Source: Escherichia phage HX01. From it: 64,000 bases of DNA. This document shows, in pieces, positions 1 to 40,342 of this stretch. The stretch lies in the sequence record NC_018855.1; one strand, written 5' to 3'. Positions within the stretch are counted from its first letter, which is position 1. Each line of letters starts with the position of its first letter. The position numbers and the translations under genes are program-made. A model generated the notes under the pieces. The model searched no databases. It was not told where the DNA came from and worked only from the letters and a program-made list of their open reading frames with translations.

Positions 1-1
1 C

Positions 2-537: not shown

Positions 538-803
538 AATTAACTCGAATCAGTATAACTGAAGAAAAGCTGGGCGAATTCTATGTTGACGAATACATGA
601 AAGTCACGTATTTTCCATTCGTTAAAGGTGTTGGTTTTTGGGAAACTCATGTATCTCAATTAAACGAAGGCGACTATAACGAAACACATGAGAACTTTTT
701 AGATTTTCTTTATAATGCCGGTCTTACTGAGCTTTATATCGATATCCATGAGTTCAAACGTTTAATGGAAAAAGTGTTTCAGGCTTATTGTTTGCTCCGA
801 TAG
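534..803 (+). CDS. hypothetical small protein (89 aa)
   Basis: ORF with ATGA overlap coupling to upstream ORF. Confidence 0.5.
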   Translation: MKLTRISITEEKLGEFYVDEYMKVTYFPFVKGVGFWETHVSQLNEGDYNETHENFLDFLYNAGLTELYIDIHEFKRLMEKVFQAYCLLR

Positions 804-810
804 TATCTCG

Positions 811-846
811 TGCTTTAAGATAGGTCTCTAAATATTATGATATAAT
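811..846 (+). promoter_or_regulatory. putative MotA-dependent middle promoter upstream of gene 55
   Basis: TGCTTTA (MotA-box-like) at 811-817, TATTAT at 833-838 and TATAAT at 841-846, about 30 nt upstream of the gene 55 ATG. Confidence 0.3.
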
Positions 847-875
847 AGACCTATGAATTGAGCTAAGAGGTACTT

Positions 876-1433
876 ATGACTGAACAAAAACCTAAAAATA
901 ACTATGTGAATAATAAAGAGCTTCTCGCCGCTATAATCGAGTGGAAAAAGGAGCTCTTAAATAATAAAGACCCAAACAAAATTATTCGTCAGAATGATAC
1001 CATCGGTTTAGCAATTATGCTTATCGCCGAAGGCCTGTCTAAACGTTTCAACTTTTCAGGATATACCCAGTCTTGGAAGCAGGAGATGATTGCAGATGGG
1101 ATTGAAGCCTCTATTAAGGGACTTCATAATTTCGACGAAACTAAGTACAATAACCCACATGCATACATAACTCGAGCTTGTTTTAATGCTTTTGTCCAAC
1201 GTATCAAAAAAGAGCGTAAGGAAGTTGCAAAGAAATATAGTTACTTCGTTCATAATGTCTACGACAGTCATGACGATGATATGGTAGCGTTGGTAGATGA
1301 AACGTTTATTCAAGACATCTACGATAAAATGACGCATTATGAAGAATCCGCTTATAAAGCTCCTGGGGCTGAAAAGAAGGAAGTTGTTAGCGATTCGCCT
1401 AGTTTGGATTTTTTATATGAGGATGACAATTGA
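876..1433 (+). CDS. 55: gp55 late-transcription sigma factor
   Basis: 185 aa; N-terminus and central region ([15 protein letters not shown]..., [37 protein letters not shown]) closely match T4 gp55 as I recall it; ATG with GAGG ribosome-binding site. Confidence 0.9.
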
Positions 1434-1632
1434 CATCTCTAACTACTTAGAAGAACCTTTTGACGAAGCAATCCCTTATTTGGTAAAACTGTTGGGTCGT
1501 GAATTTAAAATTAATTTTGACATCGACCCTTTGAACCCACATGACGTGTCATTTTCGATAAATGGGACTCCGGTTGAGTATGAGTTCTGTATTGAAGAGG
1601 ATGGACGTTTTTATTTTAATTTAATGAGATAA
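1417..1632 (+). CDS. hypothetical protein (about 70 aa)
   Basis: Track ORF 1339-1632 overlaps the gene 55 3' end; in-frame ATGs at 1417 and 1423 give a short overlap. Occupies the slot where T4 has alpha-gt/47.1. Confidence 0.4.
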
Positions 1633-1633
1633 T

Positions 1634-1957
1634 ATGACTACCGAGATTATTGAAAATAAAGAAGCAGAAGATGCAGTAGCTAAAATGCTACAAGAAATCC
1701 AAAAGAAAAATGAAGCTGAAGCACGTAAAAAATCCGAAAAGATTCTTAAAAAGAATCGTTTTGAACTAAACCGTCTTTATGCTCATGCTCAAGAAGCAGC
1801 AATTCAAAACAACTTCGAAGCTTACGAATATGCTATTAAGAAATCTCGGGATATTCTACGACAACCATATAATGACAAGTTAATTAAAATCCAGTGGATT
1901 ACTACTCGTCAGGCTATTGAGGACATCATTAATGGCGCTAGTTCAAACAAAGTTTAA
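1634..1957 (+). CDS. hypothetical protein (107 aa), Lys/Glu-rich
   Basis: ATG ORF 2 nt after the upstream stop. Confidence 0.5.
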   Translation: MTTEIIENKEAEDAVAKMLQEIQKKNEAEARKKSEKILKKNRFELNRLYAHAQEAAIQNNFEAYEYAIKKSRDILRQPYNDKLIKIQWITTRQAIEDIINGASSNKV

Positions 1958-2138
1958 ACGTCTTAATCTGAACGCAGGGTTCACCCTTAAATTGGGAGGT
2001 CCTCTTTGTGTTAAAATTTCTGAAAAGGAATATCACGACGGTTCTATTACAGAAATTTGTCCGCCTATTGTAAAGGCAGACCCAAAACAACTCGTGTGGG
2101 TTGATTCATTTCAAGTTAAGAAATGGTGGAAACGATGA
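1932..2138 (+). CDS. hypothetical protein (68 aa)
   Basis: Track ORF 1917-2138 trimmed to the in-frame ATG at 1932; overlaps the upstream ORF by 26 nt. Confidence 0.35.
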   Translation: MALVQTKFKRLNLNAGFTLKLGGPLCVKISEKEYHDGSITEICPPIVKADPKQLVWVDSFQVKKWWKR

Positions 2139-2177
2139 TAGAAATCGATTTAGGTATTTTCTGAGAGGTGATTATGT

Positions 2178-2354
2178 ATGACGAACACCCAGACTTCTGA
2201 AATAGATTATAATAAAATTCGTTCCTCTAAAGTAGAAATGATGAGACGCTTTAAAGAGTCTCATGATAAAGCTAAAGCAGAAGGAACTATAACATATAAG
2301 CCCATTCGATTTAAAAGTTCAAATGAGCCTCTGTACGGTGTACTATGTGGATAG
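2178..2354 (+). CDS. hypothetical small protein (58 aa)
   Basis: ATG ORF below the track size cutoff, GAGGTG ribosome-binding site upstream, stop directly followed by a terminator hairpin. Confidence 0.3.
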   Translation: MTNTQTSEIDYNKIRSSKVEMMRRFKESHDKAKAEGTITYKPIRFKSSNEPLYGVLCG

Positions 2355-2378
2355 GAACTCTTCGGAGTTCCTTTTTTG
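2355..2378 (+). terminator. rho-independent terminator
   Basis: GGAACTC-ttcg-GAGTTCC hairpin followed by TTTTTT. Confidence 0.65.
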
Positions 2379-2423
2379 CTTTATAAACGGATGATAGAAT
2401 GAATTAACTAATGAGGAAATAAT

Positions 2424-3443
2424 ATGAAAATTTTGCACTTAGGCGACTTCCATATCGGAGTCAAACAAGACGACCCATGGGTTCAAGATATTCAACGTGA
2501 TGGTATTCGTCAAGCAATTGAATACTCTAAGAAACATGGGATTAAAACTTGGATTCAGTACGGTGATTGGTTTGACGTCCGTAAAGCAATAACACATCGT
2601 ACAATGGAATTCAATCGTGAAATTGTTGATATGATTTCTAAAGCAGGCATTCACGTTCATGTCACGATAGGAAACCATGACATGGCGTTTAAGAATACAA
2701 TAACACCTAACACTGTTTCTGAATTGTTAACTCAATTTGAAAACTTTACTATTTACGAGCATCCAACTACTGTTGATTTTGACGGATGTCTGATTGATAT
2801 CGTTCCATGGATGTGCGAAGAAAATACAGGTGAAATCTTAGAGCACATCAAGACTTCTTCTGCCGCGTATTGTGTTGGGCACTGGGAACTGAACGGCTTT
2901 TATTTCTATAAAGGAATGAAGTCTCATGGGCTTGAACCTGATTTCTTAAAGACCTACAAACAAGTCTGGTCCGGCCACTTCCACACAATCTCTGAAGCTG
3001 CTAACGTCAAATATATTGGGACACCATGGACCCTTACTGCAGGTGATGAGAACGACCCACGCGGATTCTGGGTATTTGACACTGATGTTGAACGTATGGA
3101 ATTTATTCCTAATGAAACAACATGGCATCGACGAATCACTTATCCGTTTAAAGGCAAAATCAATTATTCTGATTATACTAATCTAGCCGTACGTGTTATA
3201 GTATCAGAAATTGATTCAGAGTTGACTAAGTTTGAATCTGAACTTGAAAAAGTAGTTCACTCTCTTCGTATGGTTTCTAAAGTTGATAACAGTGTTGAAT
3301 CTGATGACGACCAGGAAATCGAGATTAAATCACTTCAAGATATCATTAAAGAATATATTGACGCGATTCCAGATATCTCAGACGAAGACAGAGAAGCGCT
3401 GGTCAAATATTCCAACGAACTTTATATTGAGGCAACACAATGA
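2424..3443 (+). CDS. 47: gp47 recombination nuclease subunit (Mre11/SbcD-like)
   Basis: 339 aa, same length as T4 gp47; strong similarity along the length (GDFHIGVK, GNHD, GHWELNGFYFYKGMKSHGLEPDFLKTY, GTPWTLTAGDENDPRGFW). Confidence 0.9.
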   Translation: MKILHLGDFHIGVKQDDPWVQDIQRDGIRQAIEYSKKHGIKTWIQYGDWFDVRKAITHRTMEFNREIVDMISKAGIHVHVTIGNHDMAFKNTITPNTVSELLTQFENFTIYEHPTTVDFDGCLIDIVPWMCEENTGEILEHIKTSSAAYCVGHWELNGFYFYKGMKSHGLEPDFLKTYKQVWSGHFHTISEAANVKYIGTPWTLTAGDENDPRGFWVFDTDVERMEFIPNETTWHRRITYPFKGKINYSDYTNLAVRVIVSEIDSELTKFESELEKVVHSLRMVSKVDNSVESDDDQEIEIKSLQDIIKEYIDAIPDISDEDREALVKYSNELYIEATQ

Positions 3444-3697
3444 CTTTAGATGAATTTAACAATGCTGGTCTCAGGCTTGAAGTCGAAATGGGCGTTAAAG
3501 ATGATGATGGATTCGAGAACACTATCAAGTATTGGATTGAGCCATTACGCGTTGAAGGTAATGAAGTTAAAGCAGTTCATGTCTGCACCGACTGGGCTAT
3601 TGAATTTAGCTTTAATATAATGGACAACGATACTCCTGGCTCTATTCTTAAAATGGCTGAAGCGTGTATTGAGGATGCGTATAATGACGAAGACTGA
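3440..3697 (+). CDS. hypothetical protein (85 aa), 46.x-like
   Basis: ORF coupled by ATGA overlap to gene 47; syntenic with T4 46.1/46.2. Confidence 0.5.
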   Translation: MTLDEFNNAGLRLEVEMGVKDDDGFENTIKYWIEPLRVEGNEVKAVHVCTDWAIEFSFNIMDNDTPGSILKMAEACIEDAYNDED

Positions 3698-3923
3698 TTA
3701 TGAAATCCATCGTCATGAATTTAGTATTGGTGACGGTTATATTGGTATCGTTGAATGGACTGAGAATTACGAGGAATCAACTCCTCGTTTCTTTGGAACA
3801 ATGTATGTTACCTGTGAGTACGCACCGGGTGTTGTTATGTATGCAGAACTAGATGAATATTTTGCTGATAGAGATGACATGTTAAAATATGTAGAGGACT
3901 TCATTCGAAGAGAATACATATGA
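3684..3923 (+). CDS. hypothetical protein (79 aa), 46.x-like
   Basis: Track ORF 3669-3923 trimmed to in-frame ATG 3684; ATGA coupling to gene 46 at its 3' end. Confidence 0.45.
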   Translation: MTKTDYEIHRHEFSIGDGYIGIVEWTENYEESTPRFFGTMYVTCEYAPGVVMYAELDEYFADRDDMLKYVEDFIRREYI

Positions 3924-5608
3924 AATCATTTAAATTAAATCGTGTTCGTTATCAAAACATCATGTCGGTAGGTGGGAATCCTATTGACATCCAATTAGAT
4001 AAAGTCCAAAAGACATTAATCACTGGTAAAAATGGTGGTGGTAAATCTACGATGTTAGAAGCCATTACTTTCGGACTTTTCGGTAAACCATTTCGTGATG
4101 TTAAGAAAGGGCAAATCATTAATAGCACGAACAAGAAAGAACTCTTAGTTGAGCTTTGGATGGAATTCGATGGTAAAAAATACTTCATTAAACGTGGCCA
4201 AAAGCCCAATATTTTCGAAATCTCCGTTGACGGTGTTCGTCTTGATGAATCTGCCAGCAGTCGTGACTTCCAAGAAGAATTTGAACGTAGCATCGGAATG
4301 TCATACGCGTCTTTTAAACAAATCGTTGTGCTTGGGACGGCAGGGTATACCCCTTTCATGGCTCTTAGCACCCCTGCTCGTAGAAAACTTGTCGAAGACC
4401 TTTTAGAAGTCGGCACACTCGCTGAAATGGATAAAATCAATAAGTCTCAAGTTCGAGAACTTAATTCCCAGGGACAAGTTCTCGATGCCAAGAAAGACGG
4501 TGTTATCCAACAAATTAAGATTTATAACGAGAATATCGAACGTCAAAAGAAATTATCTGGTGATAATGTAGCGCGTCTACAGAATATGTATGACGACCTA
4601 GCCAAAGAAGCTCGTTCATTAAAAGCAGAAATCGAAGAAGCTAATGAGCGACTACTTAATATCGTTCTTGATGAAGACCCTACTGAGGCATTCAACAAGA
4701 TAGGACAAGAAGCATTCTTGATTAAATCTAAAATTGACTCATATAACAAAGTTATTAAGATGTATCATGATGGTGGTACATGTCCTACTTGTGCATCACA
4801 GTTGCACCAGGGTGATCCTATTGTCTCTAAGATTACCGATAAGCTTCATGAATGTAATCACTCATTCGAGCAACTTACATGTCACAGAGATAATCTGAGT
4901 GTCCTAGTGGACGAATATAGAGCTAATGTTAAGACTAAACAGGACCTTGCATCTGATATTCGTACCAAGAAACAAGCAATGATTGCCACTATTGATAAAG
5001 CTAAGAAAGTTAAAGCTGCAATAGAACAAGCCTCGGCGGAATTTATCGACCATGCTGATGAGATAGCTTTGCTTCAAAAAGAACTTGATAAAATCATTAA
5101 AACAAAATCAGATATCGTTCTTGAAAAATATCATCGTGGTATTATCACAGATATGTTAAAAGATTCTGGTATTAAAGGTGCTATCATTAAAAAATATGTG
5201 CCTCTGTTCAACAAGCAGATTAACCATTATCTTAAAATCATGGAAGCTGATTACGTGTTTTCTATTGACGAAGAATTCAATGAATCTATAAAATCACGTG
5301 GTCGTGAAGATTTTAGTTATGCTTCATTTAGTCAAGGTGAAAAGGCACGTATCGATATCGCATTGTTGTTTACATGGCGAGATATTGCTGAAAAGGTCTC
5401 TGGTGTTAGAATCAATACGTTAATTATGGACGAAGTCATGGATTCCGCGACTGATTCTGAAGGTATTAAAGCTATTTCAACAATTCTTAACTCTCTAACC
5501 GATGCAAACGTGTTTATAATTAGTCACAGAGACCATGACCCACAAGCTTATGGACAGCATCTTCAAATGAGCAAAGTTGGACGATTTACGGTAATGACTG
5601 TTTCATAA
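3920..5608 (+). CDS. 46: gp46 recombination nuclease ATPase subunit (Rad50/SbcC-like)
   Basis: 562 aa versus 560 in T4; Walker A GKNGGGKST, central coiled-coil region, CPTC zinc hook, C-terminal D-loop/Walker B (LIMDEVMDS). Confidence 0.9.
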   Translation: MKSFKLNRVRYQNIMSVGGNPIDIQLDKVQKTLITGKNGGGKSTMLEAITFGLFGKPFRDVKKGQIINSTNKKELLVELWMEFDGKKYFIKRGQKPNIFEISVDGVRLDESASSRDFQEEFERSIGMSYASFKQIVVLGTAGYTPFMALSTPARRKLVEDLLEVGTLAEMDKINKSQVRELNSQGQVLDAKKDGVIQQIKIYNENIERQKKLSGDNVARLQNMYDDLAKEARSLKAEIEEANERLLNIVLDEDPTEAFNKIGQEAFLIKSKIDSYNKVIKMYHDGGTCPTCASQLHQGDPIVSKITDKLHECNHSFEQLTCHRDNLSVLVDEYRANVKTKQDLASDIRTKKQAMIATIDKAKKVKAAIEQASAEFIDHADEIALLQKELDKIIKTKSDIVLEKYHRGIITDMLKDSGIKGAIIKKYVPLFNKQINHYLKIMEADYVFSIDEEFNESIKSRGREDFSYASFSQGEKARIDIALLFTWRDIAEKVSGVRINTLIMDEVMDSATDSEGIKAISTILNSLTDANVFIISHRDHDPQAYGQHLQMSKVGRFTVMTVS

Positions 5609-5662
5609 ACGCTTTAACACGATGTGGTTATAATGACCACATCAAATTAAATGGAGAACAAC

Positions 5663-11816: not shown

Positions 11817-12452
11817 ATGAAAACTACTCCTATTACTATCGCTATTGACGCAATCATAAAACAAGCTTCTTCTTTGGTCGCTATGGCCAAAGTAATTAGT
11901 CAAAACCCTGCTCGTTATAATGCTATTCTAGAAACTCTTCGACGCCCAGGACTTAGTAATTATGAAAGCCGAGTAATTATTACAGGTGTTGGTAAGAATG
12001 CTAATATTGCAACTAAAGCTTCTGAGACATTTGCTTCACTCGGTATCCCGAGTATGTACTTGAACACTGGACATTATTCTCACGGTGATGCAGGATTCAT
12101 TGCGCCTAATGATGTGTTGATTCATATTAGTCGTTCTGGTAAAACTGAAGAAATGATAGGCGTGGCTAAGCATCTTAAAATGATTCGTCCGAACGTCAAA
12201 CAGATTCTGTTGCATTGTAACCCGGACATTCCACAAGAATACGAAGCTCTTTTTGATTATACGTTCTGTACAGGCATCGCAGTAGAGGTTGATGAGAATT
12301 CTCTGGCTCCGACCATGTCCACTACATTGTTGTTAGCGCTTATCGATACGTTTGCTATCAACCTTTCGTCTGAACGTGGATTTACCTCTAATGACTTCCT
12401 TAAGTTCCACCCTGGCGGTGCACTAGGTGCCATGTTACGAGGCGAACAATGA
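11817..12452 (+). CDS. SIS-domain sugar-phosphate isomerase, arabinose-5-phosphate isomerase-like (KdsD/GutQ type, no CBS domains)
   Basis: 211 aa with motifs matching the KdsD SIS domain by eye: GVGKNANIATKASETFASLG, HGDAGFI, SRSGKT, APTMSTTLLLAL, FHPGGALG. Confidence 0.7.
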   Translation: MKTTPITIAIDAIIKQASSLVAMAKVISQNPARYNAILETLRRPGLSNYESRVIITGVGKNANIATKASETFASLGIPSMYLNTGHYSHGDAGFIAPNDVLIHISRSGKTEEMIGVAKHLKMIRPNVKQILLHCNPDIPQEYEALFDYTFCTGIAVEVDENSLAPTMSTTLLLALIDTFAINLSSERGFTSNDFLKFHPGGALGAMLRGEQ

Positions 12453-12592
12453 AAGCAATAACAATAGGACTTTTACTATTGATGCTTGTCATGACTATCT
12501 ACTGGAGCTTAACGACTCCAGTAATGATTCCGACTCTTATAATCGGATGGATTATGATTGGACTACAAGCAAAGTATGAATGCTTTAACTAG
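12449..12592 (+). CDS. small hydrophobic membrane protein (47 aa)
   Basis: ATG overlapping the stop of the SIS gene; two hydrophobic segments; sits where T4 has imm, but homology not established. Confidence 0.3.
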   Translation: MKAITIGLLLLMLVMTIYWSLTTPVMIPTLIIGWIMIGLQAKYECFN

Positions 12593-12633
12593 AATAGTGT
12601 ACAATACTCCTACTTACCAATGAGGACCACAAC

Positions 12634-14319
12634 ATGAAAAAAGCTGTTATTCTTGGTGCTGGACTGGCAACTCGTTTGTATCCAATAACGCATCATATTC
12701 CTAAGGTGCTTGTTAACTATAAACAAGACACTATTCTGAGCAATTTGTATACAATTTATTCTGACCTTGGCGCAGATGAAATTATTGTAGTAGTTCATTC
12801 AAAATTTGCTGAAACTGTTCGAGCTTATTGTGAGCAAGAAGGGTTCAATGTGACTATTCGTACAGTTGATGAAGCGTATGGTTCTGCTTATGCTCTTGCT
12901 AAATTGCACAAAGATTTAGACGGCCATAATGTAATTGTTAACTGGTGTGATATTATTCCTGATTTTGGTTCATGGTCTTGGAATGTTAACGCAATCTATG
13001 TTAAAGGTGACGAATGTCGATATAATTTCGACGGTGAAAATATCACTAACGTAGGTTCAACAGGTGGTAATGTTGTAGGAATTTATCAGTTCAAAGACTG
13101 GGAATTCTATATGGGTTCTACCGATGAGGAAATTCATGAATACTGCAAAGGACGTGATTTCGTAGAATTCCTTTACGGCAGTGCATTCAATAAATCAGAG
13201 CTTATGAATCTAATTGATTTAGGTGATATGCCTAAACTTGAAAAGGCTCATGAAGTTCGTGAACTTAATCGTAGTTTTAATGCCGTTGAAATTGGTGAAG
13301 AAACTGTAACTAAATTCGCATTAACCGAACAAGGCCGAGCTCTTCAGAAAGATGAGATTTCATGGTATCTTAAAGTGAAATCAGATTCAGTTCCTCAGTT
13401 AGTTTCTGTTAATGAAAATAACTTTGAAATGGAACGCATTAAAGGTAAGCCGGCATTTGAATATATTAAATCCAAATCGAGTCTTGCTCGTCCACAAATT
13501 GTTGATGCAATTTTAGATGCACTGAAATTCAGCACAGACACTTATTTTGTAAGTCCTGAAACTGTTCGTCGTGATTTCACTAAAGAATTCTATACTAAAG
13601 TTATTGATCGTTGTGAAAGTATTCAACCATTGATTGATTCATTTGGTAAAATCACACATGTGAACTACACTAAGATTGGGCGTCTGAAGCCAATGTTGAA
13701 ACAAGCTTTAGAACACCTTATTCGTTATCATAACCGTTCTCAGGGACAGTACTCTGTTATTCATGGTGACCCGAACTTCAGTAATACTATGATTACTGAT
13801 AATGGTGAAGTCAAGTTTATCGACCCTCGTGGATATTTTGGTGAAACCAAGATTTATGGACCAAAATTGTACGACGAAGCTAAAGTGCTTTATGCTGTTT
13901 CAGGTTATGATGAATTCAACGCTAATCCGACCTGGGGACAGTTTACTATTGACGAAACAACTTGTAATGTGTCTATTAACATCAATCCATTAGTTTACAA
14001 ATATGGAAAGATGAGTTCGTTTAACGAGTATCATCATTTGGCAGTGGCAATTATCTGGATTGCATTAGGTGGTTATTTCAAGAATAATCCACTTAAAGCG
14101 GTAGCCGCATATTATAAAGGTATGGAACTTCTGACTAAGCAATTACGTAACATGGGCCGTGTACTTCAGGACGGCTCTATTAGTTATGACGTAGCAGAAC
14201 CTGTAACGGCTACTCTGATTACAAAAAATCCTGGTAAATGGGTACTAACTGATAAAGAAACTGGTGTTTCCTATCGTCCAATCGGTGGCGATATCACTCA
14301 TCAATGGGAACGAATCTAA
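12634..14319 (+). CDS. bifunctional sugar-1-phosphate nucleotidyltransferase / sugar kinase fusion (putative NDP-sugar salvage enzyme)
   Basis: 561 aa. N-terminus KKAVILGAGLATRL resembles the G-x-G-T-R-L loop of sugar nucleotidyltransferases; C-terminal HGDPNFSN...FIDPRG resembles the catalytic/Mg-binding motifs of APH/choline-kinase-like kinases. GAGGA ribosome-binding site. Confidence 0.6.
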   Translation: MKKAVILGAGLATRLYPITHHIPKVLVNYKQDTILSNLYTIYSDLGADEIIVVVHSKFAETVRAYCEQEGFNVTIRTVDEAYGSAYALAKLHKDLDGHNVIVNWCDIIPDFGSWSWNVNAIYVKGDECRYNFDGENITNVGSTGGNVVGIYQFKDWEFYMGSTDEEIHEYCKGRDFVEFLYGSAFNKSELMNLIDLGDMPKLEKAHEVRELNRSFNAVEIGEETVTKFALTEQGRALQKDEISWYLKVKSDSVPQLVSVNENNFEMERIKGKPAFEYIKSKSSLARPQIVDAILDALKFSTDTYFVSPETVRRDFTKEFYTKVIDRCESIQPLIDSFGKITHVNYTKIGRLKPMLKQALEHLIRYHNRSQGQYSVIHGDPNFSNTMITDNGEVKFIDPRGYFGETKIYGPKLYDEAKVLYAVSGYDEFNANPTWGQFTIDETTCNVSININPLVYKYGKMSSFNEYHHLAVAIIWIALGGYFKNNPLKAVAAYYKGMELLTKQLRNMGRVLQDGSISYDVAEPVTATLITKNPGKWVLTDKETGVSYRPIGGDITHQWERI

Positions 14320-14705
14320 TGCACCGTGTAGAAAACATGCTTAATCTTTGTTTTGATGTCGATGATTGTATAACAGAGTGGAATAACAACCGTGATTACG
14401 TGAACTTCAAACCAGACGTCGAAATGGTGACTGCCATTAATGCCCTGTACGATGCAGGGCATACCATAACGCTTTACACTGCTCGCGGTATGAAGTCAGT
14501 CGGTCCTGGTCGTATAGCAATTGACATTCTCCCAAGTCTGATTCAGAACTTGGCAAACATTGGATTGAAGTACCATAATTTGCTAACACATAAACCAGTA
14601 TATGATTGGATTATCGACGACAAAGCTATGCGTCCTGACGAATTCAAAGCTCTTATGAATAAAGGCGAATTCGAAACATTTAAATCATATAAACCGAATC
14701 TATAA
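14319..14705 (+). CDS. small HAD-like phosphatase (tentative)
   Basis: Track start 14304 trimmed to ATG 14319 (TAATG overlap with upstream stop). FDVDD near the N-terminus, TLYTARG, HKP and DWIIDD resemble HAD motifs I-IV, but motif I is non-canonical. Confidence 0.35.
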   Translation: MHRVENMLNLCFDVDDCITEWNNNRDYVNFKPDVEMVTAINALYDAGHTITLYTARGMKSVGPGRIAIDILPSLIQNLANIGLKYHNLLTHKPVYDWIIDDKAMRPDEFKALMNKGEFETFKSYKPNL

Positions 14706-14762
14706 TAATTTAAGTAAGACCTGCAAAAACCATCGCGTCAATTAACGTGAGATGCAAAAAAA

Positions 14763-15923
14763 ATGAATACTTTTAAAATCGGAACGAATTTTGATTTAGC
14801 TCTTCTTGATAAAATCGTAGAGCTCAATAAAACTTATCCTAATAGCTTGATAAACGAAGTATACGGCTCTACAAGAGAAATGGCTTTTGTAGCAGCCAGA
14901 CCTGATTTTAGGCTTCCTGACGTTGACAAAAAGATGTTAGAAGATTATGTTAAACGTTGTAACGAATTAGGTATTTGCTTTAACTATACACTCAACACGA
15001 TAAATCCTGGTTCAAAAAGAGAACTAGTTGAGTGGAAGAAGAAAGCTATTCAGGATTATGTTCAGTATCTTTGGTCAATAGGCGTATGGCGTATTACTAT
15101 CGCTAACCCTGTTGTTATGGAAATTGTTCGTGAAGTCAATAAAGACATTGAGATTGAAGTTTCAACAATTCTACATGTCGATGCTGTAACTCAAATCAAA
15201 TACTTGCATGACCAATATAATATCAAAAAGGTCTGCTGTGGAATTCATAAGAACCGTTCAGTTTCTTTCCTGAAACGTGCAGCAGAGTTTTGTAATAAGA
15301 ACAATATAATATTTGAAGTTCTTGTAAATGAGTTCTGTTCTAATGCTGGTAAAGGGTACACAACACATTGTAGCTATCGTGACTCTTGCTATATTTTCCA
15401 TAGCACCGATGTTACAGTAGATGATGCCAAATCCTTAAATGGATATCCAATGCAACACTGTATTAAAGCTCGTGATACAGATCCATTTAACTGGTTGAGA
15501 ACTCGTTTTGTTCGTCCTCAAGATTTGAAACTTTATAATGATATTGGTATCACTCAATTTAAAGTTTCGGGACGTACAGGTAGCACAGACTACATTTTGA
15601 AAGTTCTTGAAGCTTATGCTTCTGAAAAGTTTGAAGGCAATTTGTTGGAATTGTGGAAGCCTTTAGAGACCATTTTCACTCTTGAAAATGAGACCGAGTT
15701 TTCACATACAGTAAATATTGAAACCTCTTTGTTAGACGGCTTTTTAGAAAAAAGGTGGTTCAAACATCCAGATTTCGATTGTGCTAATGAAATCTGCGGG
15801 ACGACGTGTACATATTGTGAAAGATATTATAAACGTCAGTTATCTAAAAATGGGTTATCAGAAAACTCTATATCTATTATTGATATAACTAACTCTGATG
15901 ACGCTTTGAGGTACCCAGAATGA
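14763..15923 (+). CDS. uncharacterized enzyme-sized protein with C-terminal Cys cluster (C-x4-C-x3-C-x2-C)
   Basis: 386-aa ORF; C-terminal DFDCANEICGTTCTYCERYY; function not assignable by eye. Confidence 0.5.
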   Translation: MNTFKIGTNFDLALLDKIVELNKTYPNSLINEVYGSTREMAFVAARPDFRLPDVDKKMLEDYVKRCNELGICFNYTLNTINPGSKRELVEWKKKAIQDYVQYLWSIGVWRITIANPVVMEIVREVNKDIEIEVSTILHVDAVTQIKYLHDQYNIKKVCCGIHKNRSVSFLKRAAEFCNKNNIIFEVLVNEFCSNAGKGYTTHCSYRDSCYIFHSTDVTVDDAKSLNGYPMQHCIKARDTDPFNWLRTRFVRPQDLKLYNDIGITQFKVSGRTGSTDYILKVLEAYASEKFEGNLLELWKPLETIFTLENETEFSHTVNIETSLLDGFLEKRWFKHPDFDCANEICGTTCTYCERYYKRQLSKNGLSENSISIIDITNSDDALRYPE

Positions 15924-16005
15924 TTTCTAGAAAAACTTTTAACCACCAACTTAACGAAGAGATTTTGACTATTAAAATTAACAGCAACGAACAAATTCTT
16001 AAAAA

Positions 16006-16024
16006 GGCCCATAAGGGCCTTTTT
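16006..16024 (+). terminator. rho-independent terminator
   Basis: GGCCC-ataa-GGGCC hairpin followed by TTTTT, about 80 nt after the stop of the 386-aa ORF. Confidence 0.55.
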
Positions 16025-16117
16025 GAAACTAAAGCGGCTAAAGTGATTAAAGAACCTGTTCAACTAGAATACTAAGCCGAAGCTCTACGTTATATCAACA
16101 TCGCTAAGAAATTCAAA

Positions 16118-16143
16118 TAAGCTTTATGAATTGAGTATATAAT
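16118..16143 (+). promoter_or_regulatory. putative middle promoter upstream of the gene-42-like ORF
   Basis: TAAGCTTTA (MotA-box-like, one mismatch) with TATAAT 11 nt downstream. Confidence 0.25.
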
Positions 16144-16161
16144 AACTGTATTGAGGTAAAC

Positions 16162-16878
16162 ATGGGAAAACATAACACAATGAAATATATTAAAGCCGCA
16201 GATTTTCAATCCGCATTTAAAGCTGTCAATCGTGAAATTTTAGAAAATCCACAGTTCATTACTGATTCTCGTATTGGACGTTGTAATGAAATTGGGTCTA
16301 TGACAGTAGTTGTTGATACCCCTTCATCATTCAAAATGACCGACCCACGTATTAATCGCATCTCTTATGAATATGCTGAAGATTTCTGGAAATTTATGAT
16401 TTCTGGTGGTACTGATGCAAAAGAAGCATTTAAGGCATATCCTAACGTCGCTAAATTTATTTCTAAACCTAAATCAGACGCTTTGCCTGCAAACTTCAAC
16501 ACTTTCTATGGTCCACGAATTGCGGCCCAGTTACCAACTCTTCTAAAAGAACTTAAAGAAAAACCTAACTCTCGAAGAGTTGTGTTCCAAATTCTAGAAA
16601 GTTCTGATCAGGCTTTGCTTGATTCAGACGAAACACTTGAATATCCATGTACTGACTCAGTGACTTATTATATTCGTGATGGTAAGCTTTATACCCACTG
16701 TCATATGCGTTCTCAGAACTGTGCTGTTGTTATGCAGTTGGATTTTTATCTCCAAGGAAAATTACTTCATTATATCGCTAACGAATGTGGTGTAGAAGTT
16801 GGTGATTATACTCATACCATGGTAAGTGCCCATGTGTTTGAACGTGATTTTGATTATGTTAAAGGATTCCTTGACTAA
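16162..16878 (+). CDS. 42: thymidylate-synthase-fold pyrimidine hydroxymethylase, divergent dCMP hydroxymethylase (gp42-like)
   Basis: 238 aa at the syntenic gene 42 position; shares the NPNSRR, CTDSVTYYIRD and MRSQN blocks with T4 gp42 (NPDSRR, CTNTVQYLIRD, MRSND) but is otherwise quite divergent. Confidence 0.6.
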   Translation: MGKHNTMKYIKAADFQSAFKAVNREILENPQFITDSRIGRCNEIGSMTVVVDTPSSFKMTDPRINRISYEYAEDFWKFMISGGTDAKEAFKAYPNVAKFISKPKSDALPANFNTFYGPRIAAQLPTLLKELKEKPNSRRVVFQILESSDQALLDSDETLEYPCTDSVTYYIRDGKLYTHCHMRSQNCAVVMQLDFYLQGKLLHYIANECGVEVGDYTHTMVSAHVFERDFDYVKGFLD

Positions 16879-17777
16879 TGGCTATTTTCCGCGTACCTAT
16901 TTTGAGTATGCGGTCTTATGAAACTGGACAGTATGCTATCCTTAAGGATGGCAACTTCCAACTTCATTTGCACCGTGCTAATCCGGGTGATGTGATTACA
17001 TATCCACGTAATGCATCTGATATTAAAGAATGTGAACGTCTTTTCCCAGAATTTAAGTTTGTTCCATTATGGTATAAAGATAACGCATATAACACTCGTA
17101 AATATTTCTGGTCTGAAAATGAATTTGTGGTTGATTCATTAATTGATTATTATGATTGTGATTTTCTAATCACAGATATCACTGGATATGACGGCACTTT
17201 TGACGTAGAATTCAATTTCAATATCACTGCAGACCCTAATAAACCACGTTTTTATATTGACGAATTCTTAAAAACCGACATGTTGTCTGTTAATCGTTCA
17301 CTTCAAACTACTGTGTTGAATGAACGTCAAAAAGAAGTGCTGGTTAACGCAGGTGCAGATGGTAATAAGATTATCGTAACGCAGAAAGTTATACGTCCTT
17401 CCATCATGCAGCGTCTTGTAGGTGATTTGGCCCCTATTCATCTAGATGGTATTTTTCATCCATTTCGAATTAGTGACCCGTGTTATCGTTTTGAACAAGT
17501 GGTTGAATGCGCAATTCAATTAGGTCAACCGCTTTATATAACCGATCCAAATAATAGCTTCGACAGAAATAAGTATCCTGAAGAAGCACTGATTCGAATT
17601 TTTAAACCAACTAAAACTGAGTACTATCAAATTCTTAAAGGAAGACCGAAGATTCAATATTTCGAAAATCCTGAAGAAGTATTCCATCCAGGTCTTGGCG
17701 AGTTCATCTACTTTAACGCTTTAATTTCTTCACCGTATAATATACCTAAATATGAAGATGTCGTAATCGAGGAATAA
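16878..17777 (+). CDS. hypothetical protein (299 aa) occupying the beta-gt slot
   Basis: ATGG overlap with the gp42-like stop; no recognisable similarity to T4 beta-glucosyltransferase. Confidence 0.5.
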   Translation: MAIFRVPILSMRSYETGQYAILKDGNFQLHLHRANPGDVITYPRNASDIKECERLFPEFKFVPLWYKDNAYNTRKYFWSENEFVVDSLIDYYDCDFLITDITGYDGTFDVEFNFNITADPNKPRFYIDEFLKTDMLSVNRSLQTTVLNERQKEVLVNAGADGNKIIVTQKVIRPSIMQRLVGDLAPIHLDGIFHPFRISDPCYRFEQVVECAIQLGQPLYITDPNNSFDRNKYPEEALIRIFKPTKTEYYQILKGRPKIQYFENPEEVFHPGLGEFIYFNALISSPYNIPKYEDVVIEE

Positions 17778-17778
17778 A

Positions 17779-18327
17779 ATGGCTAAAATTATTTTAGTAG
17801 ATGGCCCAGATAATGCTGGTAAAACAACTTTCATTAATGACATAATGGAAATTAGTGAAAGATATGTAAAGATTGATTTCCCTAAACGAACAGTTGATGG
17901 ACGTTTCGATGTTAAGTCTCGAAATGAAGTTGGCTGTTTCGAAACGATGTTGAATTATTTAGACCCTACTAAGATTTATCTGTTAGACCGTGGATATATT
18001 AGTAACTGGGTTTATGGACGTATTCGACAAGATGCGGACTCGGTTCTTGACGTTTATGAACAGGATTATGTTCGTCTTTGCCAAAACCATGATGTGTTCA
18101 CAATTATTTTAACACGTAACGAAATGACTGAAAGTTTTGAAGACGACCTTATTACTTTGTCTTCATTCGGTTTTAATACAGTCATTTCATATTTTGAAGA
18201 GTTTGCAATTCATAACGAAATCCAAACGTATCAATTACTTAATCATGATGGTGCTAACAAAGTTATAGGATTTAATGCAAGCGAACGTAATGGTTTGATT
18301 ACAGAAATTATCAAATGGGCTCGTTAA
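17779..18327 (+). CDS. P-loop nucleotide/nucleoside kinase-like protein (thymidylate-kinase-like fold)
   Basis: 182 aa; Walker A ILVDGPDNAGKTT and a DRGY motif resembling the DR(Y/H) of TMK-type kinases. Confidence 0.5.
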   Translation: MAKIILVDGPDNAGKTTFINDIMEISERYVKIDFPKRTVDGRFDVKSRNEVGCFETMLNYLDPTKIYLLDRGYISNWVYGRIRQDADSVLDVYEQDYVRLCQNHDVFTIILTRNEMTESFEDDLITLSSFGFNTVISYFEEFAIHNEIQTYQLLNHDGANKVIGFNASERNGLITEIIKWAR

Positions 18328-39241: not shown

Positions 39242-40342
39242 ATGAAAGTTATGTTTATCCCATCTCGTGCAGTCCCATTTAATCCTGACCGTGTACAAGG
39301 TGGTCTTGAAGCAGTACATTTAAATGTGTTGAAATATCTTGTGTCCATCGGTGCTGATATTGATTATATCGGCTTTGATAATGACACGTTTGGTGACTGG
39401 AAAGTTACACACCATCCTGTTGGTCATCTGACTAAATTTAGTCTAGGTATGAGTTATACTATGGCTCGTAAGATTGTTGAACTAGCCGGCATCCATGAAT
39501 ACGATTTTGTTGTTACTATGGAACCGACTAAACTAACCGTTCAGGCAATTAAAGACGCAGGTCTCTCTAAAGTTCATAAGAATTTTATGGCAACACCATT
39601 TGAACCGGTATCTCGTGGCATTGTTCAAATTTGGGACCAGACTATTCAAATTCATAAGAATGGTGGTAAGAGTTATGCTCCTACTAAAGCCTTCCGTGAA
39701 TTTGAACGCAAATATTGTTATATGACTTCAGGTCTGACTGACAAAATTGATTATGATTATTGGCGAGCAAATCCGTTGTTTGAAGCCGAAGATTATCCGG
39801 TTATTTGTTTGAATGAGAAACCTGAAGTTCTTCCGGCGACTGATCTGATTATTAGTGCACAACGTTATGACACTAAAATGCGTCGTACTGATGTTGCTCT
39901 TGAAGCGATTAAAGCACTAGGCGAAAATGGTGTAGGATACTGTCCAAGCAAATGGGCACCACCAGCTAAATATCCTGTTATTATTGATGCTCCACACAGT
40001 GAAATCATGGAACGTCTTAAAACAGCTAAAGCGCTTATTAATACGTGTCCTGACACAGGTACGGTAGAGAATAGTTCTATTGAAGCCATCTCTAAAGGTG
40101 TCCCTGTAATCCAGTTAGTTTTTAAGGATTATCCTCATGCGACATTCGAATACGACCCAGATACTGTGCGTGTAGAAATTGATTCCTCTACTCCTAAGAA
40201 AGAAGTAGTTGCGCTTTACACAAAAGCTGTATTAGAATTCACTGACACATACGAAGCTCGAGTTAAACGTGCTGAAGCAGTATGGAAGAAGTATAACCGA
40301 GATGCAGTTGTTGCGATGTGGGATAAAATCTTCACAGCGTAA
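39242..40342 (+). CDS. putative GT-B-fold glycosyltransferase, candidate DNA (hmC) glycosyltransferase
   Basis: 366 aa; C-terminal region GTVENSSIEAISKGVPVIQL resembles the E-x7-E donor-binding motif of GT4/GT-B enzymes. Inserted between gene 39 and rIIA.1/rIIA, where T4 has no glycosyltransferase. Confidence 0.5.
   Translation: MKVMFIPSRAVPFNPDRVQGGLEAVHLNVLKYLVSIGADIDYIGFDNDTFGDWKVTHHPVGHLTKFSLGMSYTMARKIVELAGIHEYDFVVTMEPTKLTVQAIKDAGLSKVHKNFMATPFEPVSRGIVQIWDQTIQIHKNGGKSYAPTKAFREFERKYCYMTSGLTDKIDYDYWRANPLFEAEDYPVICLNEKPEVLPATDLIISAQRYDTKMRRTDVALEAIKALGENGVGYCPSKWAPPAKYPVIIDAPHSEIMERLKTAKALINTCPDTGTVENSSIEAISKGVPVIQLVFKDYPHATFEYDPDTVRVEIDSSTPKKEVVALYTKAVLEFTDTYEARVKRAEAVWKKYNRDAVVAMWDKIFTA

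What the first reader, a model, noticed from the sequence alone, without database searches (positions are those of the whole stretch)
1434..2423. alpha-glucosyltransferase slot is empty and filled by small ORFs plus a strong terminator
T4 has the 400-aa alpha-gt between genes 55 and 47. Here the roughly 1 kb interval holds only ORFs of 58-107 aa, two overlapping in different frames, and a strong terminator at 2355-2378. This is consistent with loss or replacement of glucosylation machinery.
Basis: partly seen in the sequence, partly recalled or inferred. Interest (0 to 1): 0.4.

Follow-up and report, generated by a model that had tools for sequence, protein, structure and literature searches.

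The report
RB69-type locus lacking alpha-glucosyltransferase
In this RB69-like T-even phage, gene 55 is followed by the same four small conserved genes as in T4, then a terminator-plus-promoter module and gene 47; the T4 glucosyltransferase gene is simply absent, as is already known for this phage group, which puts arabinose rather than glucose on its DNA.

Summary
The coordinates, ORF sizes, frame overlap and hairpin are all real. The reading "alpha-gt slot filled by small ORFs" is wrong.

- **Phage:** the window is a Mosigvirus (RB69 group), 97.5% identical to and collinear with RB69.
- **Small ORFs:** they are orthologs of T4 a-gt.5, a-gt.4, a-gt.3 and a-gt.2 (47, 58, 69 and 91% aa identity). 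T4 has these four as well as alpha-gt.
- **What is missing:** compared with T4, only mobB, a-gt and 47.1 are absent. The junction is the 69-bp spacer 2355-2423.
- **The spacer:** it holds a C(UUCG)G terminator hairpin fused to a MotA-box middle promoter. This module is homologous to the mapped T4 promoters P47 and PmobB.
- **The cassette:** in Tequatrovirus and Jiaodavirus, a-gt is flanked by two copies of this module. Here there is one.
- **Remnants:** no a-gt, b-gt, mobB or 47.1 remnant exists anywhere in the 64 kb.
- **Replacement:** the published RB69 arabinosyl-5-hydroxycytosine gene set is present elsewhere in the window at 97-100% identity. Glucosylation is therefore replaced genome-wide, but not at this locus.
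- **Loss or never gained:** unresolved. Parsimony on flanking-gene trees mildly favours "never gained".

All of this is already known, so interest is low. One side observation: a 120-bp patch in a-gt.2 is 119/120 identical to Tequatrovirus RB6.

The parts
841..846 (+). -10 element (TATAAT) of the P55-like promoter upstream of gene 55; predicted transcript start near 853
   Evidence: The sequence is identical in arrangement to T4, where the mapped middle promoter P55 starts at 40180, 7 nt after this TATAAT. Assigned by homology only.
876..1433 (+). Gene 55, late sigma factor gp55 (185 aa)
   Evidence: 89% aa identity to T4 and RB27 gp55. Annotated as such in relatives.
1417..1632 (+). a-gt.5 ortholog (71 aa; alternative start at 1423). 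It overlaps the 3' end of gene 55 by 17 nt, as in T4.
   Evidence: 47% aa identity to T4 a-gt.5, E 9e-19. Pfam DUF5491 E 6e-13 and phrog_1169.
1634..1957 (+). a-gt.4 ortholog (107 aa)
   Evidence: 58% aa identity to T4 a-gt.4, E 4e-38. Pfam DUF2654 E 2e-27 and phrog_951. Also present in Krischvirus Phi1.
1932..2138 (+). a-gt.3 ortholog (68 aa); overlaps a-gt.4 by 26 nt in another frame
   Evidence: 69% aa identity to T4 a-gt.3, E 2e-34. phrog_1648 E 1e-33. The overlap is conserved in T4, RB69, RB27, Mineola and MX01.
2178..2354 (+). a-gt.2 ortholog (58 aa). Positions 2182-2301 are a Tequatrovirus-type mosaic patch.
   Evidence: 91% aa identity to T4 a-gt.2, E 2e-36. Pfam DUF5486 E 4e-38. The patch is 119/120 identical to RB6 but only about 67-78% to RB69.
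2353..2377 (+). Intrinsic-terminator-like hairpin AGGAACTC-TTCG-GAGTTCCT plus T run. It ends the 55 to a-gt.2 transcription unit.
   Evidence: The hairpin is conserved downstream of a-gt.2 in RB69, T4, RB27, Mineola and MX01. Several relatives' records annotate a terminator here.
2374..2400 (+). MotA-dependent middle promoter (P47-like): MotA box TTTTGCTTTA 2374-2383, 11-nt spacer, -10 TAGAAT 2395-2400; predicted start near 2406-2407
   Evidence: It matches the consensus (a/t)3TGCTTtA, 12+/-1 bp, TAnnnT (Hinton 2010 PMC2988021). It is homologous to the mapped T4 promoters P47 (start 36576) and PmobB (start 38682). The pattern occurs 10 times on the + strand against 0.8 expected. motA and asiA are in the window.
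2424..3443 (+). Gene 47 (SbcD/Mre11-like recombination nuclease subunit, 339 aa), preceded by SD GAGGA at 2413-2417
   Evidence: 76% aa identity to T4 and RB27 gp47.
3440..3697 (+). 46.2 ortholog
   Evidence: Pfam T4_Y03C E 1e-43. RB69 annotation.
3684..3923 (+). 46.1 ortholog (DUF5487)
   Evidence: Pfam DUF5487 E 6e-13. RB69 annotation.
3920..5608 (+). Gene 46 (SbcC/Rad50-like subunit)
11817..18327 (+). RB69-type arabinosyl-5-hydroxycytosine gene island between gene 43 and uvsX. Homologs: gp55 11817-12452; gp53:52 12634-14319; gp51 14304-14705; gp50 14763-15923; gp48 16162-16878; gp47:46 16878-17777; gp45 17779-18327. This is the real replacement for glucosylation.
   Evidence: 97-100% aa identity to the RB69 proteins. 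Pfam SIS, NTP_transferase, Peptidase_U32 and Thymidylat_synt. Functions are taken from Lee 2026 and Thomas 2018.
39242..40342 (+). Homolog of RB69 ORF003c (gp3), the putative second arabinosyltransferase
   Evidence: 99.2% aa identity over 366 aa. The role is proposed in Thomas 2018 and Lee 2026.

Best explanation
**What it is.** The interval is the ordinary Mosigvirus (RB69-type) version of the conserved T-even 55-to-47 region.

**How it works.**
- Gene 55 and four tightly packed or overlapping small genes of unknown function (a-gt.5, a-gt.4, a-gt.3, a-gt.2) form one rightward transcription unit.
- A C(UUCG)G hairpin plus T run at 2353-2377 closes that unit.
- The T run runs directly into a MotA box and -10 element (2374-2400). 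This restarts middle-mode transcription for genes 47, 46.2, 46.1 and 46.
- The composite terminator/middle-promoter module is a 'PmSL' in the terminology of Comeau et al. 2014.

**Where a-gt goes.** The module marks the exact point where Tequatrovirus and Jiaodavirus carry the a-gt gene. In those genera a-gt (with mobB in T4) is bracketed by two copies of the module. Here there is one copy and no a-gt, mobB or 47.1.

**Why a-gt is absent.** The phage does not glucosylate hydroxymethylcytosine. It carries the complete RB69 gene set for arabinosylated 5-hydroxycytosine elsewhere in the window, so an hmC alpha-glucosyltransferase would probably lack its substrate.

**Shown:** orthology, gene order, absence of remnants, hairpin and promoter motifs and their conservation, presence of the arabinosylation genes.

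**Inferred:** that the hairpin terminates, that the promoter fires, that recombination between the modules created the presence/absence polymorphism, and the chemistry of this phage's DNA.
For: - **Identity of the phage:** 98% identity to about 130 Mosigvirus genomes. The window is collinear with RB69 at 97.5% over 27 kb. RB69 and mar005P1 annotate the same order: 55, a-gt.5.4.3.2, 47.
- **Orthology to the T4 small ORFs:**; families.
- **T4 order:** 55, a-gt.5-.2, mobB, a-gt, 47.1, 47.
- **No remnants:** best E for a-gt 1.1, mobB 0.27, 47.1 1.0; b-gt no hit with E <= 1.
- **Hairpin statistics and covariation:**
- **Module alignment:** the window copy is shared with both T4 copies, RB27, both Mineola copies, MX01 and a second window copy at 36654-36696.
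- **T4 copies are mapped promoters:** they coincide with P47 and PmobB.
- **MotA-type pattern is enriched:** 10 on the + strand against 0.8 expected. motA and asiA are present.
- **PmSL/PeSL concept:**
- **Arabinosylation genes:** 97-100% identity.
- **RB69 lacks a-gt and b-gt:** published.
Against: - No transcript data exist for this phage, so terminator and promoter activity rest on motif and on homology to T4.
- The MotA-box spacer is 11 nt, at the short end of 12+/-1.
- The functions of the four small proteins are unknown. PDB sequence searches found nothing below E 0.7.
- The module-mediated recombination step is inferred only from the flanking-repeat geometry.
- The DNA chemistry is extrapolated from RB69.
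Confidence: 0.9

Rival explanations
1. **History A, never gained.** The single-module, a-gt-less arrangement is ancestral for Tevenvirinae. The a-gt cassette entered the module separately in the Tequatrovirus and Jiaodavirus lineages, or once with an old lateral transfer through the conserved flanks. Mosigvirus never carried it.
For: - a-gt is absent from the slot in Mosigvirus, Dhakavirus MX01, Gelderlandvirus STML-198 and Krischvirus Phi1.
- The 55-46 span leaves no room for a-gt in Serratia phage X20, Edwardsiella phage PEi20 and Yersinia phage phiR1-RT.
- gp47 and gp55 NJ trees give ((Mosig,Tequatro),Dhaka),(Gelderland,Jiaoda). That means 2 gains against 1 gain plus 3 losses.
- The slot demonstrably accepts insertions: mobB or HNH genes in Tequatrovirus, a 109-aa ORF between the hairpin and the MotA box in STML-198, and a GIY-YIG-like gene in AV118.
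Against: - a-gt divergence between RB27 and Mineola (68%) matches that of the flanking gp47 (71%) and gp55 (77%). This is what long vertical residence would give.
- Parsimony is weak in a locus with frequent indels.
- The trees use two genes and seven taxa, with no support values.
Confidence: 0.5
2. **History B, loss.** An ancestor of Mosigvirus had a-gt between two modules and deleted it by recombination between them, leaving one hybrid module. This may have coincided with the switch from hmC to 5-hydroxycytosine/arabinose.
For: - The window module looks hybrid. Its 5' part (hairpin plus TTGCTTTATAAA) matches the T4 left copy. Its 3' part (CGGA..TGATAnAATGA) matches the T4 right copy better, at 11/13 against 9/13 around the -10 (my count).
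- a-gt divergence tracks the flanking genes.
- 47.1 is present in Tequatrovirus and in Dhakavirus (76% identity) but absent here. At least one deletion at this junction in the Mosigvirus line is therefore likely.
- a-gt would be useless without hmC.
Against: - It needs three or more independent losses on the flanking-gene trees.
- A hybrid-looking module is equally expected if the single module is ancestral and was split by an insertion.
- No a-gt remnant survives.
Confidence: 0.4
3. The small ORFs are lineage-specific fillers or replacements that took over the a-gt position (the literal claim in the finding's title).
For: They lie between genes 55 and 47 and are short.
Against: - All four have T4 orthologs in the same order, upstream of a-gt.
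- All four belong to established families.
- They co-occur with a-gt in T4, RB27, RB6 and Mineola.
Confidence: 0.02
4. The interval hides a degraded, split or frameshifted a-gt.
For: None. The best tblastn hit in the interval is 44 aa at 30% identity, E 1.4 against the whole window, and it lies inside a-gt.5.
Against: - Every hit is at noise level.
- Only 39 + 69 bp of the interval are non-coding.
- The coding parts are conserved orthologs of other genes.
Confidence: 0.01

Closest known systems
Phage RB69 (Mosigvirus RB69, NC_004928), region 55 to a-gt.5 to a-gt.2 to 47 (RB69p071-p066)
   Same: Identical gene order, the same single hairpin/promoter module and the same 69-bp a-gt.2-47 spacer. 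DNA identity is 97-100% outside the a-gt.2 patch.
   Different: Inside a-gt.2, positions 2182-2301 of the window are Tequatrovirus-type (119/120 to RB6) instead of RB69-type. The -10 reads TAGAAT here and TAAAAT in RB69.
Phage T4 region 55 to 47 (NC_000866, 36.4-40.2 kb)
   Same: Gene 55, a-gt.5, a-gt.4, a-gt.3, a-gt.2 and 47 are in the same order and orientation. The a-gt.4/a-gt.3 and 55/a-gt.5 overlaps are the same. So is the hairpin plus MotA-box module after a-gt.2.
   Different: T4 additionally has mobB, a-gt and 47.1, and a second copy of the module after a-gt. Its interval is 3152 bp against 990 bp here. T4 lacks the 39-bp a-gt.3/a-gt.2 spacer.
PeSL/PmSL composite terminator-promoter cassettes of T4-like phages (Arbiol et al. 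2010, PMC2839356; Comeau et al. 2014, PMC4122927)
   Same: A stem-loop is followed by a promoter, here the Mot-box 'PmSL' flavour: TGCTT plus a -10. It sits intergenically, exactly at an indel between related phages, and repeats flank the variable gene.
   Different: PmSLs were described in vibriophage nt-1, and the T4/PST elements described were early-promoter PeSLs. The papers read here do not mention the a-gt junction (0 occurrences of a-gt). Recombination at this site is inferred, not observed.
T4 MotA-dependent middle promoters P47 and PmobB (Palpha-gt.1) (Hinton 2010, PMC2988021, Table 1)
   Same: Homologous sequence context and a consensus MotA box, -10 and spacing. The module sits directly upstream of gene 47.
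   Different: It is not mapped experimentally in any Mosigvirus. The spacer is 11 nt. Here the promoter drives 47 directly rather than 47.1 or mobB.
RB69 arabinosyl-5-hydroxycytosine DNA modification pathway (Thomas et al. 2018; Lee et al. 2026)
   Same: All listed RB69 genes (gp3, 28, 45, 46:47, 48, 50, 51, 52:53, 55) are present in the window at 97-100% aa identity.
   Different: They are located 9-38 kb from the finding and are not part of the interval. The chemistry has not been measured for this phage.

Membership tests
T4-type DNA alpha-glucosyltransferase (a-gt, GT-B fold) | Detectable sequence similarity to T4 a-gt (400 aa) in the 55-47 interval or elsewhere in the window | tested here: not met
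   tblastn of T4 a-gt against the whole window gives best E 1.1. In the interval the best is a 44-aa hit at 30% identity inside a-gt.5. The a-gt homologs found in 657 phage records fall in two identity bands, the >=90% Escherichia/Shigella group and the 60-80% Klebsiella group. No record that matches this window at 95-99% has room for a-gt between 55 and 46.
T4-type DNA alpha-glucosyltransferase (a-gt, GT-B fold) | An ORF of glycosyltransferase size (about 300-400 aa) in the slot | tested here: not met
   The largest ORF in 1434-2423 is 107 aa.
T4 a-gt.5 / a-gt.4 / a-gt.3 / a-gt.2 small-protein families (DUF5491, DUF2654, phrog_1648, DUF5486) | Significant similarity to the T4 proteins and family profiles, in the same order downstream of gene 55 | tested here: met
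   BLASTP E 9e-19, 4e-38, 2e-34 and 2e-36. Profile hits are above the Pfam cut-offs or at PHROG E <= 1e-24. Synteny is shown.
Intrinsic (rho-independent) terminator | G+C-containing stem-loop immediately followed by a T run, at the end of a gene | tested here: met
   8-bp stem (4 GC), UUCG loop and a T run from 2372 to 2377; the stem starts inside the a-gt.2 stop codon. The fold has dG -13.9 and z -3.7. Covariation is shown.
Intrinsic (rho-independent) terminator | Transcripts actually end there | not testable with these tools
   Needs Term-seq, 3'-RACE or in vitro transcription.
MotA/AsiA-dependent T4-type middle promoter | MotA box (a/t)(a/t)(a/t)TGCTTtA placed 12+/-1 bp upstream of a good sigma-70 -10 (TAnnnT) | tested here: met
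   TTTTGCTTTA at 2374-2383, an 11-nt spacer and TAGAAT at 2395-2400. The consensus is from Hinton 2010.
MotA/AsiA-dependent T4-type middle promoter | The phage encodes MotA and AsiA | tested here: met
   Window 48122-48754 is 99% identical to RB69 MotA. Window 50631-50903 is 98% identical to RB69 AsiA.
MotA/AsiA-dependent T4-type middle promoter | Homology to an experimentally mapped middle promoter | tested here: met
   It aligns with the T4 modules, whose -10 elements lie 7 and 6 nt upstream of the mapped starts of P47 (36576) and PmobB (38682).
MotA/AsiA-dependent T4-type middle promoter | MotA-dependent initiation in vivo | not testable with these tools
   Needs 5'-end mapping in wild-type and motA-mutant infections.
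PmSL/PeSL mobile regulatory cassette | Composite stem-loop plus promoter in an intergenic region | tested here: met
PmSL/PeSL mobile regulatory cassette | Repeated copies in the genome, located at indels between related phages | tested here: met
   A second near-identical copy at 36654-36696 precedes a homing-endonuclease ORF that RB69 lacks. Two copies bracket a-gt in T4, RB27 and Mineola.
PmSL/PeSL mobile regulatory cassette | Recombination between copies generates the indels | not testable with these tools
   Inferred from geometry only. Needs crosses or population sequencing.
RB69-type arabinosyl-5-hydroxycytosine DNA modification system | Presence of the ThyA-like 5hodCMP synthase, the arabinose-nucleotide synthesis genes and two GT-B arabinosyltransferase candidates | tested here: met
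   97-100% aa identity to RB69 gp48, gp55, gp52:53, gp51, gp50, gp45, gp46:47 and gp3. Pfam domains are consistent.
RB69-type arabinosyl-5-hydroxycytosine DNA modification system | Arabinosylated 5hoC in virion DNA | not testable with these tools
   Needs LC-MS of nucleosides. Shown for RB69 itself by Lee 2026.

The most novel reading that the evidence does not exclude
The single hairpin/MotA-box module at 2353-2400 is the empty, or vacated, docking site of a promoter-terminator-bounded a-gt cassette that moves among T-even genera by recombination within the module. The 120-bp patch at 2182-2301, 119/120 identical to T2-type phage RB6, would then show that Mosigvirus and a-gt-bearing Tequatrovirus still exchange DNA in nature about 50 bp from that site. 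This would be despite the reported inability of RB69 to recombine with T4. It would also mean a-gt is kept out by selection, because there is no hmC substrate, rather than by lack of opportunity.
Probability: 0.3. Interest if true: 0.3.

Novelty: already known. Interest (0 to 1): 0.1.

Why it matters
It matters little. The absence of a-gt and b-gt from RB69-type phages, and their replacement by an arabosylation pathway, is published: arabinosylation in 2018, refined to arabinosyl-5-hydroxycytosine in 2026. The local gene order is already annotated in RB69 and in more than 100 relatives.

Three points are useful:
- **Annotation hygiene.** The 'a-gt.N' names are positional. These genes say nothing about glucosylation.
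- **A clean example.** The a-gt gene is a promoter/terminator-bounded cassette sitting in one well-defined module.
- **A recombination tract.** A short, recent Tequatrovirus-to-Mosigvirus tract lies right next to that module, which bears on how isolated these genera really are.

Tried and rejected
- **Remnant searches.** tblastn of T4 a-gt, mobB, 47.1 and b-gt against the whole window and against 1300-2500 alone, with word size 2 and E up to 1000, gave only noise.
- **Rfam.** No family reached its gathering score anywhere in the 64 kb.
- **Repeats.** The scan of 1-6000 found nothing beyond short chance matches.
- **PDB sequence searches.** The four small proteins gave nothing below E 0.7.
- **Homologs of a-gt.4.** The search for homologous proteins returned only 5 close relatives. 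That is too shallow for a useful structure prediction of a short, probably helical protein, so I dropped structure prediction as off-target.
- **Literature.** Searches for 'a-gt.2-5', 'alpha-gt.N' and DUF2654 found no functional study. One paper search failed on a term that was too short.
- **Python access.** The T4 loci L002 and L005-L009 never appeared in the Python sandbox. T4 comparisons were therefore done with the alignment and compare tools or with pasted protein sequences.
- **Antisense ORFs.** I considered the ORFs on the opposite strand in the interval (1447-1542, 1938-2090, 2172-2264, 2343-2438) and rejected them. They are 30-50 aa and lie inside conserved sense-strand genes.
- **P-alpha-gt.4.** I considered whether the T4 promoter P-alpha-gt.4 (inside a-gt.5) is conserved here. 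No GCTT box is visible at the equivalent position, so I do not claim it.
Full report
**What the window is**

Megablast of 800-3500 hits 744 phage records. The best matches, at 98%, are Escherichia phages such as PhAPEC2, JN02 and 348Ecol098PP. The closely matching records I opened (mar005P1, AV117, AV118) are classified as Mosigvirus.

The window is collinear with RB69. Window 1-26929 matches RB69 42414-15447 at 97.5%. Two further blocks match at 95% and 90%.

**Checking the observation**

Gene 55 occupies 876-1433 and gene 47 occupies 2424-3443, so the interval is 990 bp. It contains four same-strand ORFs:
- 1417-1632 (71 aa; the mechanical ORF starts at 1339, inside gene 55)
- 1634-1957 (107 aa)
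- 1932-2138 (68 aa)
- 2178-2354 (58 aa)

The second and third ORFs overlap by 26 nt in different frames.

A hairpin, AGGAACTC-TTCG-GAGTTCCT, lies at 2353-2372 and is followed by a T run. The fold of 2340-2385 containing it has dG -13.9 kcal/mol. Its z-score against dinucleotide shuffles is -3.7, and none of 200 shuffles folds as well.

**What the small ORFs are**

T4 has, in transcription order, 55, a-gt.5, a-gt.4, a-gt.3, a-gt.2, mobB, a-gt, 47.1, 47. The four window ORFs are the orthologs of the four T4 small ORFs.

| Window ORF | T4 ortholog | aa identity | BLASTP E | Family |
|---|---|---|---|---|
| 1417-1632 | a-gt.5 | 47% | 9e-19 | DUF5491 |
| 1634-1957 | a-gt.4 | 58% | 4e-38 | DUF2654 |
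| 1932-2138 | a-gt.3 | 69% | 2e-34 | phrog_1648 |
| 2178-2354 | a-gt.2 | 91% | 2e-36 | DUF5486 |

RB69 and mar005P1 annotate exactly the same series. The 55/a-gt.5 and a-gt.4/a-gt.3 overlaps are conserved in T4 too, which is typical tight early/middle-gene packing.

So the ORFs do not fill the a-gt slot. They sit beside it in every T-even phage that has a-gt: T4, RB27, RB6 and Mineola. a-gt.5 and a-gt.4 are present even in Krischvirus Phi1. The names are positional. Their functions are unknown: there are no PDB relatives by sequence, and I found no literature on them.

**What is missing, and where**

The T4 55-47 interval is 3152 bp. The extra DNA is mobB (795 bp), a-gt (1203 bp), 47.1 (141 bp) and spacers.

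tblastn of T4 a-gt, mobB, 47.1 and b-gt against the whole 64 kb gives only noise. The best E-values are 1.1, 0.27 and 1.0, and b-gt gives no hit with E <= 1.

Only 39 bp (2139-2177) and 69 bp (2355-2423) of the interval are non-coding. The junction is the 69-bp spacer.

**Anatomy of the junction**

Straight after the hairpin, the T run continues into TTTTGCTTTA (2374-2383). After 11 nt comes TAGAAT (2395-2400), then a Shine-Dalgarno GAGGA (2413-2417) and the ATG of gene 47.

This matches the T4 middle-promoter consensus: a MotA box (a/t)(a/t)(a/t)TGCTTtA, 12+/-1 bp, then the -10 element (Hinton 2010, PMC2988021).

The pattern TGCTT[TC]A-N11-13-TAnnnT occurs 10 times on the + strand of the window, against 0.8 expected from shuffles. 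UUCG-loop hairpins with stems of at least 5 bp occur 9 times, against 1.9 expected. The window also encodes MotA (48122-48754, 99% to RB69) and AsiA (50631-50903, 98%).

T4 has this hairpin/MotA-box module twice:
- after a-gt.2: GGAGCTTCGGCTCC..ATTGCTTTATAAA..TAAAAT
- after a-gt: AGGGCTTCGGCCCT..TAGCTTTATAC..TATAAT

I checked these coordinates against Hinton's Table 1. The mapped start of PmobB (P-alpha-gt.1; 38682) lies 6 nt after the left -10. The mapped start of P47 (36576) lies 7 nt after the right -10. The window module is therefore homologous to two experimentally mapped MotA-dependent promoters.

By the same logic, the TATAAT at 841-846 corresponds to T4 P55 (start 40180).

The stem-loop is supported by covariation across nine copies: the window copy, RB69, T4 twice, RB27, Mineola twice, MX01 and a second window copy. 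In these, 98% of cells are paired, 3 of 6 pairs carry compensatory changes, and pairing collapses when the partner columns are slid.

The most likely working model is as follows:
- P55 drives 55, a-gt.5, a-gt.4, a-gt.3 and a-gt.2.
- The hairpin terminates or stabilises that transcript.
- The P47-like promoter restarts transcription for 47, 46.2, 46.1 and 46.

Composite stem-loop/promoter elements of exactly this kind have been described as PeSL, and with Mot boxes as PmSL. They were proposed to mediate indels between T4-like phages (Comeau 2014, PMC4122927; Arbiol 2010).

**The slot across genera**

| Genus (phage) | Arrangement at the slot |
|---|---|
| Tequatrovirus (RB27, RB6) | a-gt.2, module, a-gt, module, 47.1, 47 |
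| Tequatrovirus (T4) | as above, with mobB added after the first module |
| Tequatrovirus (others) | as above, with an HNH gene added |
| Jiaodavirus (Mineola) | a-gt.2, module, a-gt, module, 47 |
| Dhakavirus (MX01) | a-gt.2, one module, 47.1 (76% to T4), 47; no a-gt |
| Gelderlandvirus (STML-198) | hairpin, an unrelated 109-aa ORF, MotA box/-10, 47 |
| Krischvirus (Phi1) | 55, a-gt.5, a-gt.4, 47 |
| Mosigvirus (AV118) | GIY-YIG-like 267-aa ORF with an early-promoter PeSL in place of most of a-gt.2 and the module |

Mineola's annotated a-gt start at locus position 2947 lies inside the first module. The homology to T4 a-gt starts at 3001.

Homologs of a-gt occur in 657 phage records. These fall into a >=90% identity group (Escherichia, Shigella, Yersinia and Salmonella phages, Tequatrovirus type) and a 60-80% group (Klebsiella phages, Jiaodavirus type). 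About 150 records match the window's 55-46 segment at 90-99%. The sampled ones span about 4.73 kb, which leaves no room for a-gt.

**Loss or never gained?**

The evidence points both ways, so I leave the direction open: roughly 0.5 for never gained and 0.4 for lost.

- **For never gained.** NJ trees of the two flanking genes agree on ((Mosigvirus,Tequatrovirus),Dhakavirus),(Gelderlandvirus,Jiaodavirus), with Krischvirus as outgroup. On that tree, a-gt in Tequatrovirus and Jiaodavirus needs 2 gains, or 1 gain plus 3 losses.
- **For old residence.** a-gt divergence between RB27 and Mineola (68%) equals that of gp47 (71%) and gp55 (77%). This fits long residence or an old transfer.
- **For a deletion here.** The distribution of 47.1 (Tequatrovirus and Dhakavirus, not Mosigvirus) suggests at least one deletion at this junction in the Mosigvirus line.
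- **Neutral.** The window module looks like a hybrid of the T4 left copy (hairpin, TTGCTTTATAAA) and the T4 right copy (CGGA..TGATAnAATGA). Both directions predict this.

**Is glucosylation replaced?**

Yes, but elsewhere in the genome. Published work shows the following:
- RB69 has no a-gt, b-gt or ba-gt homolog and carries arabinose on its DNA (Thomas 2018, PMC6024577).
- More recent work finds that the base is mono- or di-arabinosylated 5-hydroxycytosine.
- That base is made by a ThyA-like enzyme (gp48). Arabinose-nucleotide genes (gp55, gp52:53, gp51, gp50, gp45) and two GT-B transferase candidates (gp46:47, gp3) complete the pathway (Lee 2026, PMC13326640).

Every one of these proteins is encoded in the window at 97-100% identity, at 11817-18327 and 39242-40342. 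The gp42-like protein is only 24% identical to T4 dCMP hydroxymethylase (Pfam). An hmC alpha-glucosyltransferase would therefore probably have no substrate in this phage. That last step is an inference from RB69 chemistry.

**Side observation: a mosaic patch in a-gt.2**

A sliding-window comparison shows the window is 97-100% identical to RB69 throughout the interval, except in a-gt.2. Positions 2182-2301 are 119/120 identical to Tequatrovirus RB6 and about 93% identical to T4. They are only about 67-78% identical to RB69 and 80-83% to most Mosigvirus genomes.

The Mosigvirus-specific 39-bp spacer on the left and the hairpin/promoter on the right are RB69-type. AV117 has a shorter version of the same patch.

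This looks like a recent gene-conversion tract from a T2-type phage that ends about 50 bp before the point where the donor carries a-gt.

**Verdict**

The locus is the standard, already annotated RB69-type arrangement. The absence of a-gt and its genome-wide replacement are published. The terminator and promoter are the conserved counterparts of known T4 signals. Novelty is 'already known' and interest is low.

Noticed in passing
window 2182-2301 (inside a-gt.2): This 120-bp mosaic patch is 119/120 identical to Tequatrovirus RB6 and about 93% to T4. It is only about 67-78% identical to RB69 and 80-83% to most Mosigvirus genomes, while both flanks are RB69-type. Mosigvirus AV117 carries a shorter version. 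It looks like recent inter-genus gene conversion ending about 50 bp upstream of the a-gt insertion point.
   Followed up: yes
window 36654-37386: A second, near-identical hairpin/MotA-box module (AAGGGCTTCGGCCCTT TTTGCTTTA..CGGATGATAGAAT) lies at 36654-36696. It directly precedes a 227-aa NUMOD3/HNH homing-endonuclease ORF (36703-37386) next to gene 39. This stretch does not align with RB69.
   Followed up: partly
window 12634-14319 and 16878-17777: The RB69 record splits these genes into ORF053c+ORF052c and ORF047c+ORF046c. Here each is one uninterrupted ORF, of 561 aa and 299 aa. This agrees with the published view that the RB69 splits are sequencing errors (Thomas 2018; Lee 2026).
   Followed up: partly
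window 47617-48121 (between gene 52 and motA): The spacer is about 505 bp, against about 185 bp in RB69. The extra DNA contains an antisense 105-aa ORF (47759-48076, - strand) with no Pfam or PHROG hit. About half of the Mosigvirus records (75 of 155) carry the full segment, and part of it matches a second place in those genomes.
   Followed up: partly
L006 (Escherichia phage AV118) 1240-2406: In this Mosigvirus, most of a-gt.2 and the hairpin/MotA-box module are replaced. In their place are a different hairpin, an early-type promoter (TTTAC-N17-TATAAT) and a 267-aa ORF with a weak GIY-YIG match that abuts gene 47. A short a-gt.2 N-terminal remnant is left.
   Followed up: partly
whole window, + strand: C(UUCG)G-type hairpins are enriched (9 with stems of at least 5 bp, against 1.9 expected). 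So are MotA-box/-10 patterns (10 against 0.8 expected). Several hairpins are followed by promoter-like sequences, for example at 8987, 21389, 27215, 43824 and 47692.
   Followed up: partly
L004 (Klebsiella phage Mineola) 2932-3003: The annotated a-gt start (locus 2947) lies inside the hairpin/MotA-box module that follows a-gt.2. The similarity to T4 a-gt begins at 3001, so the annotated start is probably 18 codons too far upstream.
   Followed up: no
L002 (T4) 2577-2589, minus strand: The ATG of T4 47.1 overlaps the last two bases of the P47 -10 element. The mapped P47 start (36576) therefore lies downstream of that ATG. P47 transcripts cannot encode full-length 47.1, which would have to be translated from read-through transcripts.
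   Followed up: no
L009 (Salmonella phage STML-198) 1530-1950: In this Gelderlandvirus the hairpin and the MotA-box/-10 promoter are separated by an unrelated 109-aa ORF with no Pfam hit. This is an insertion inside the module, at the same point where a-gt sits in other genera.
   Followed up: partly
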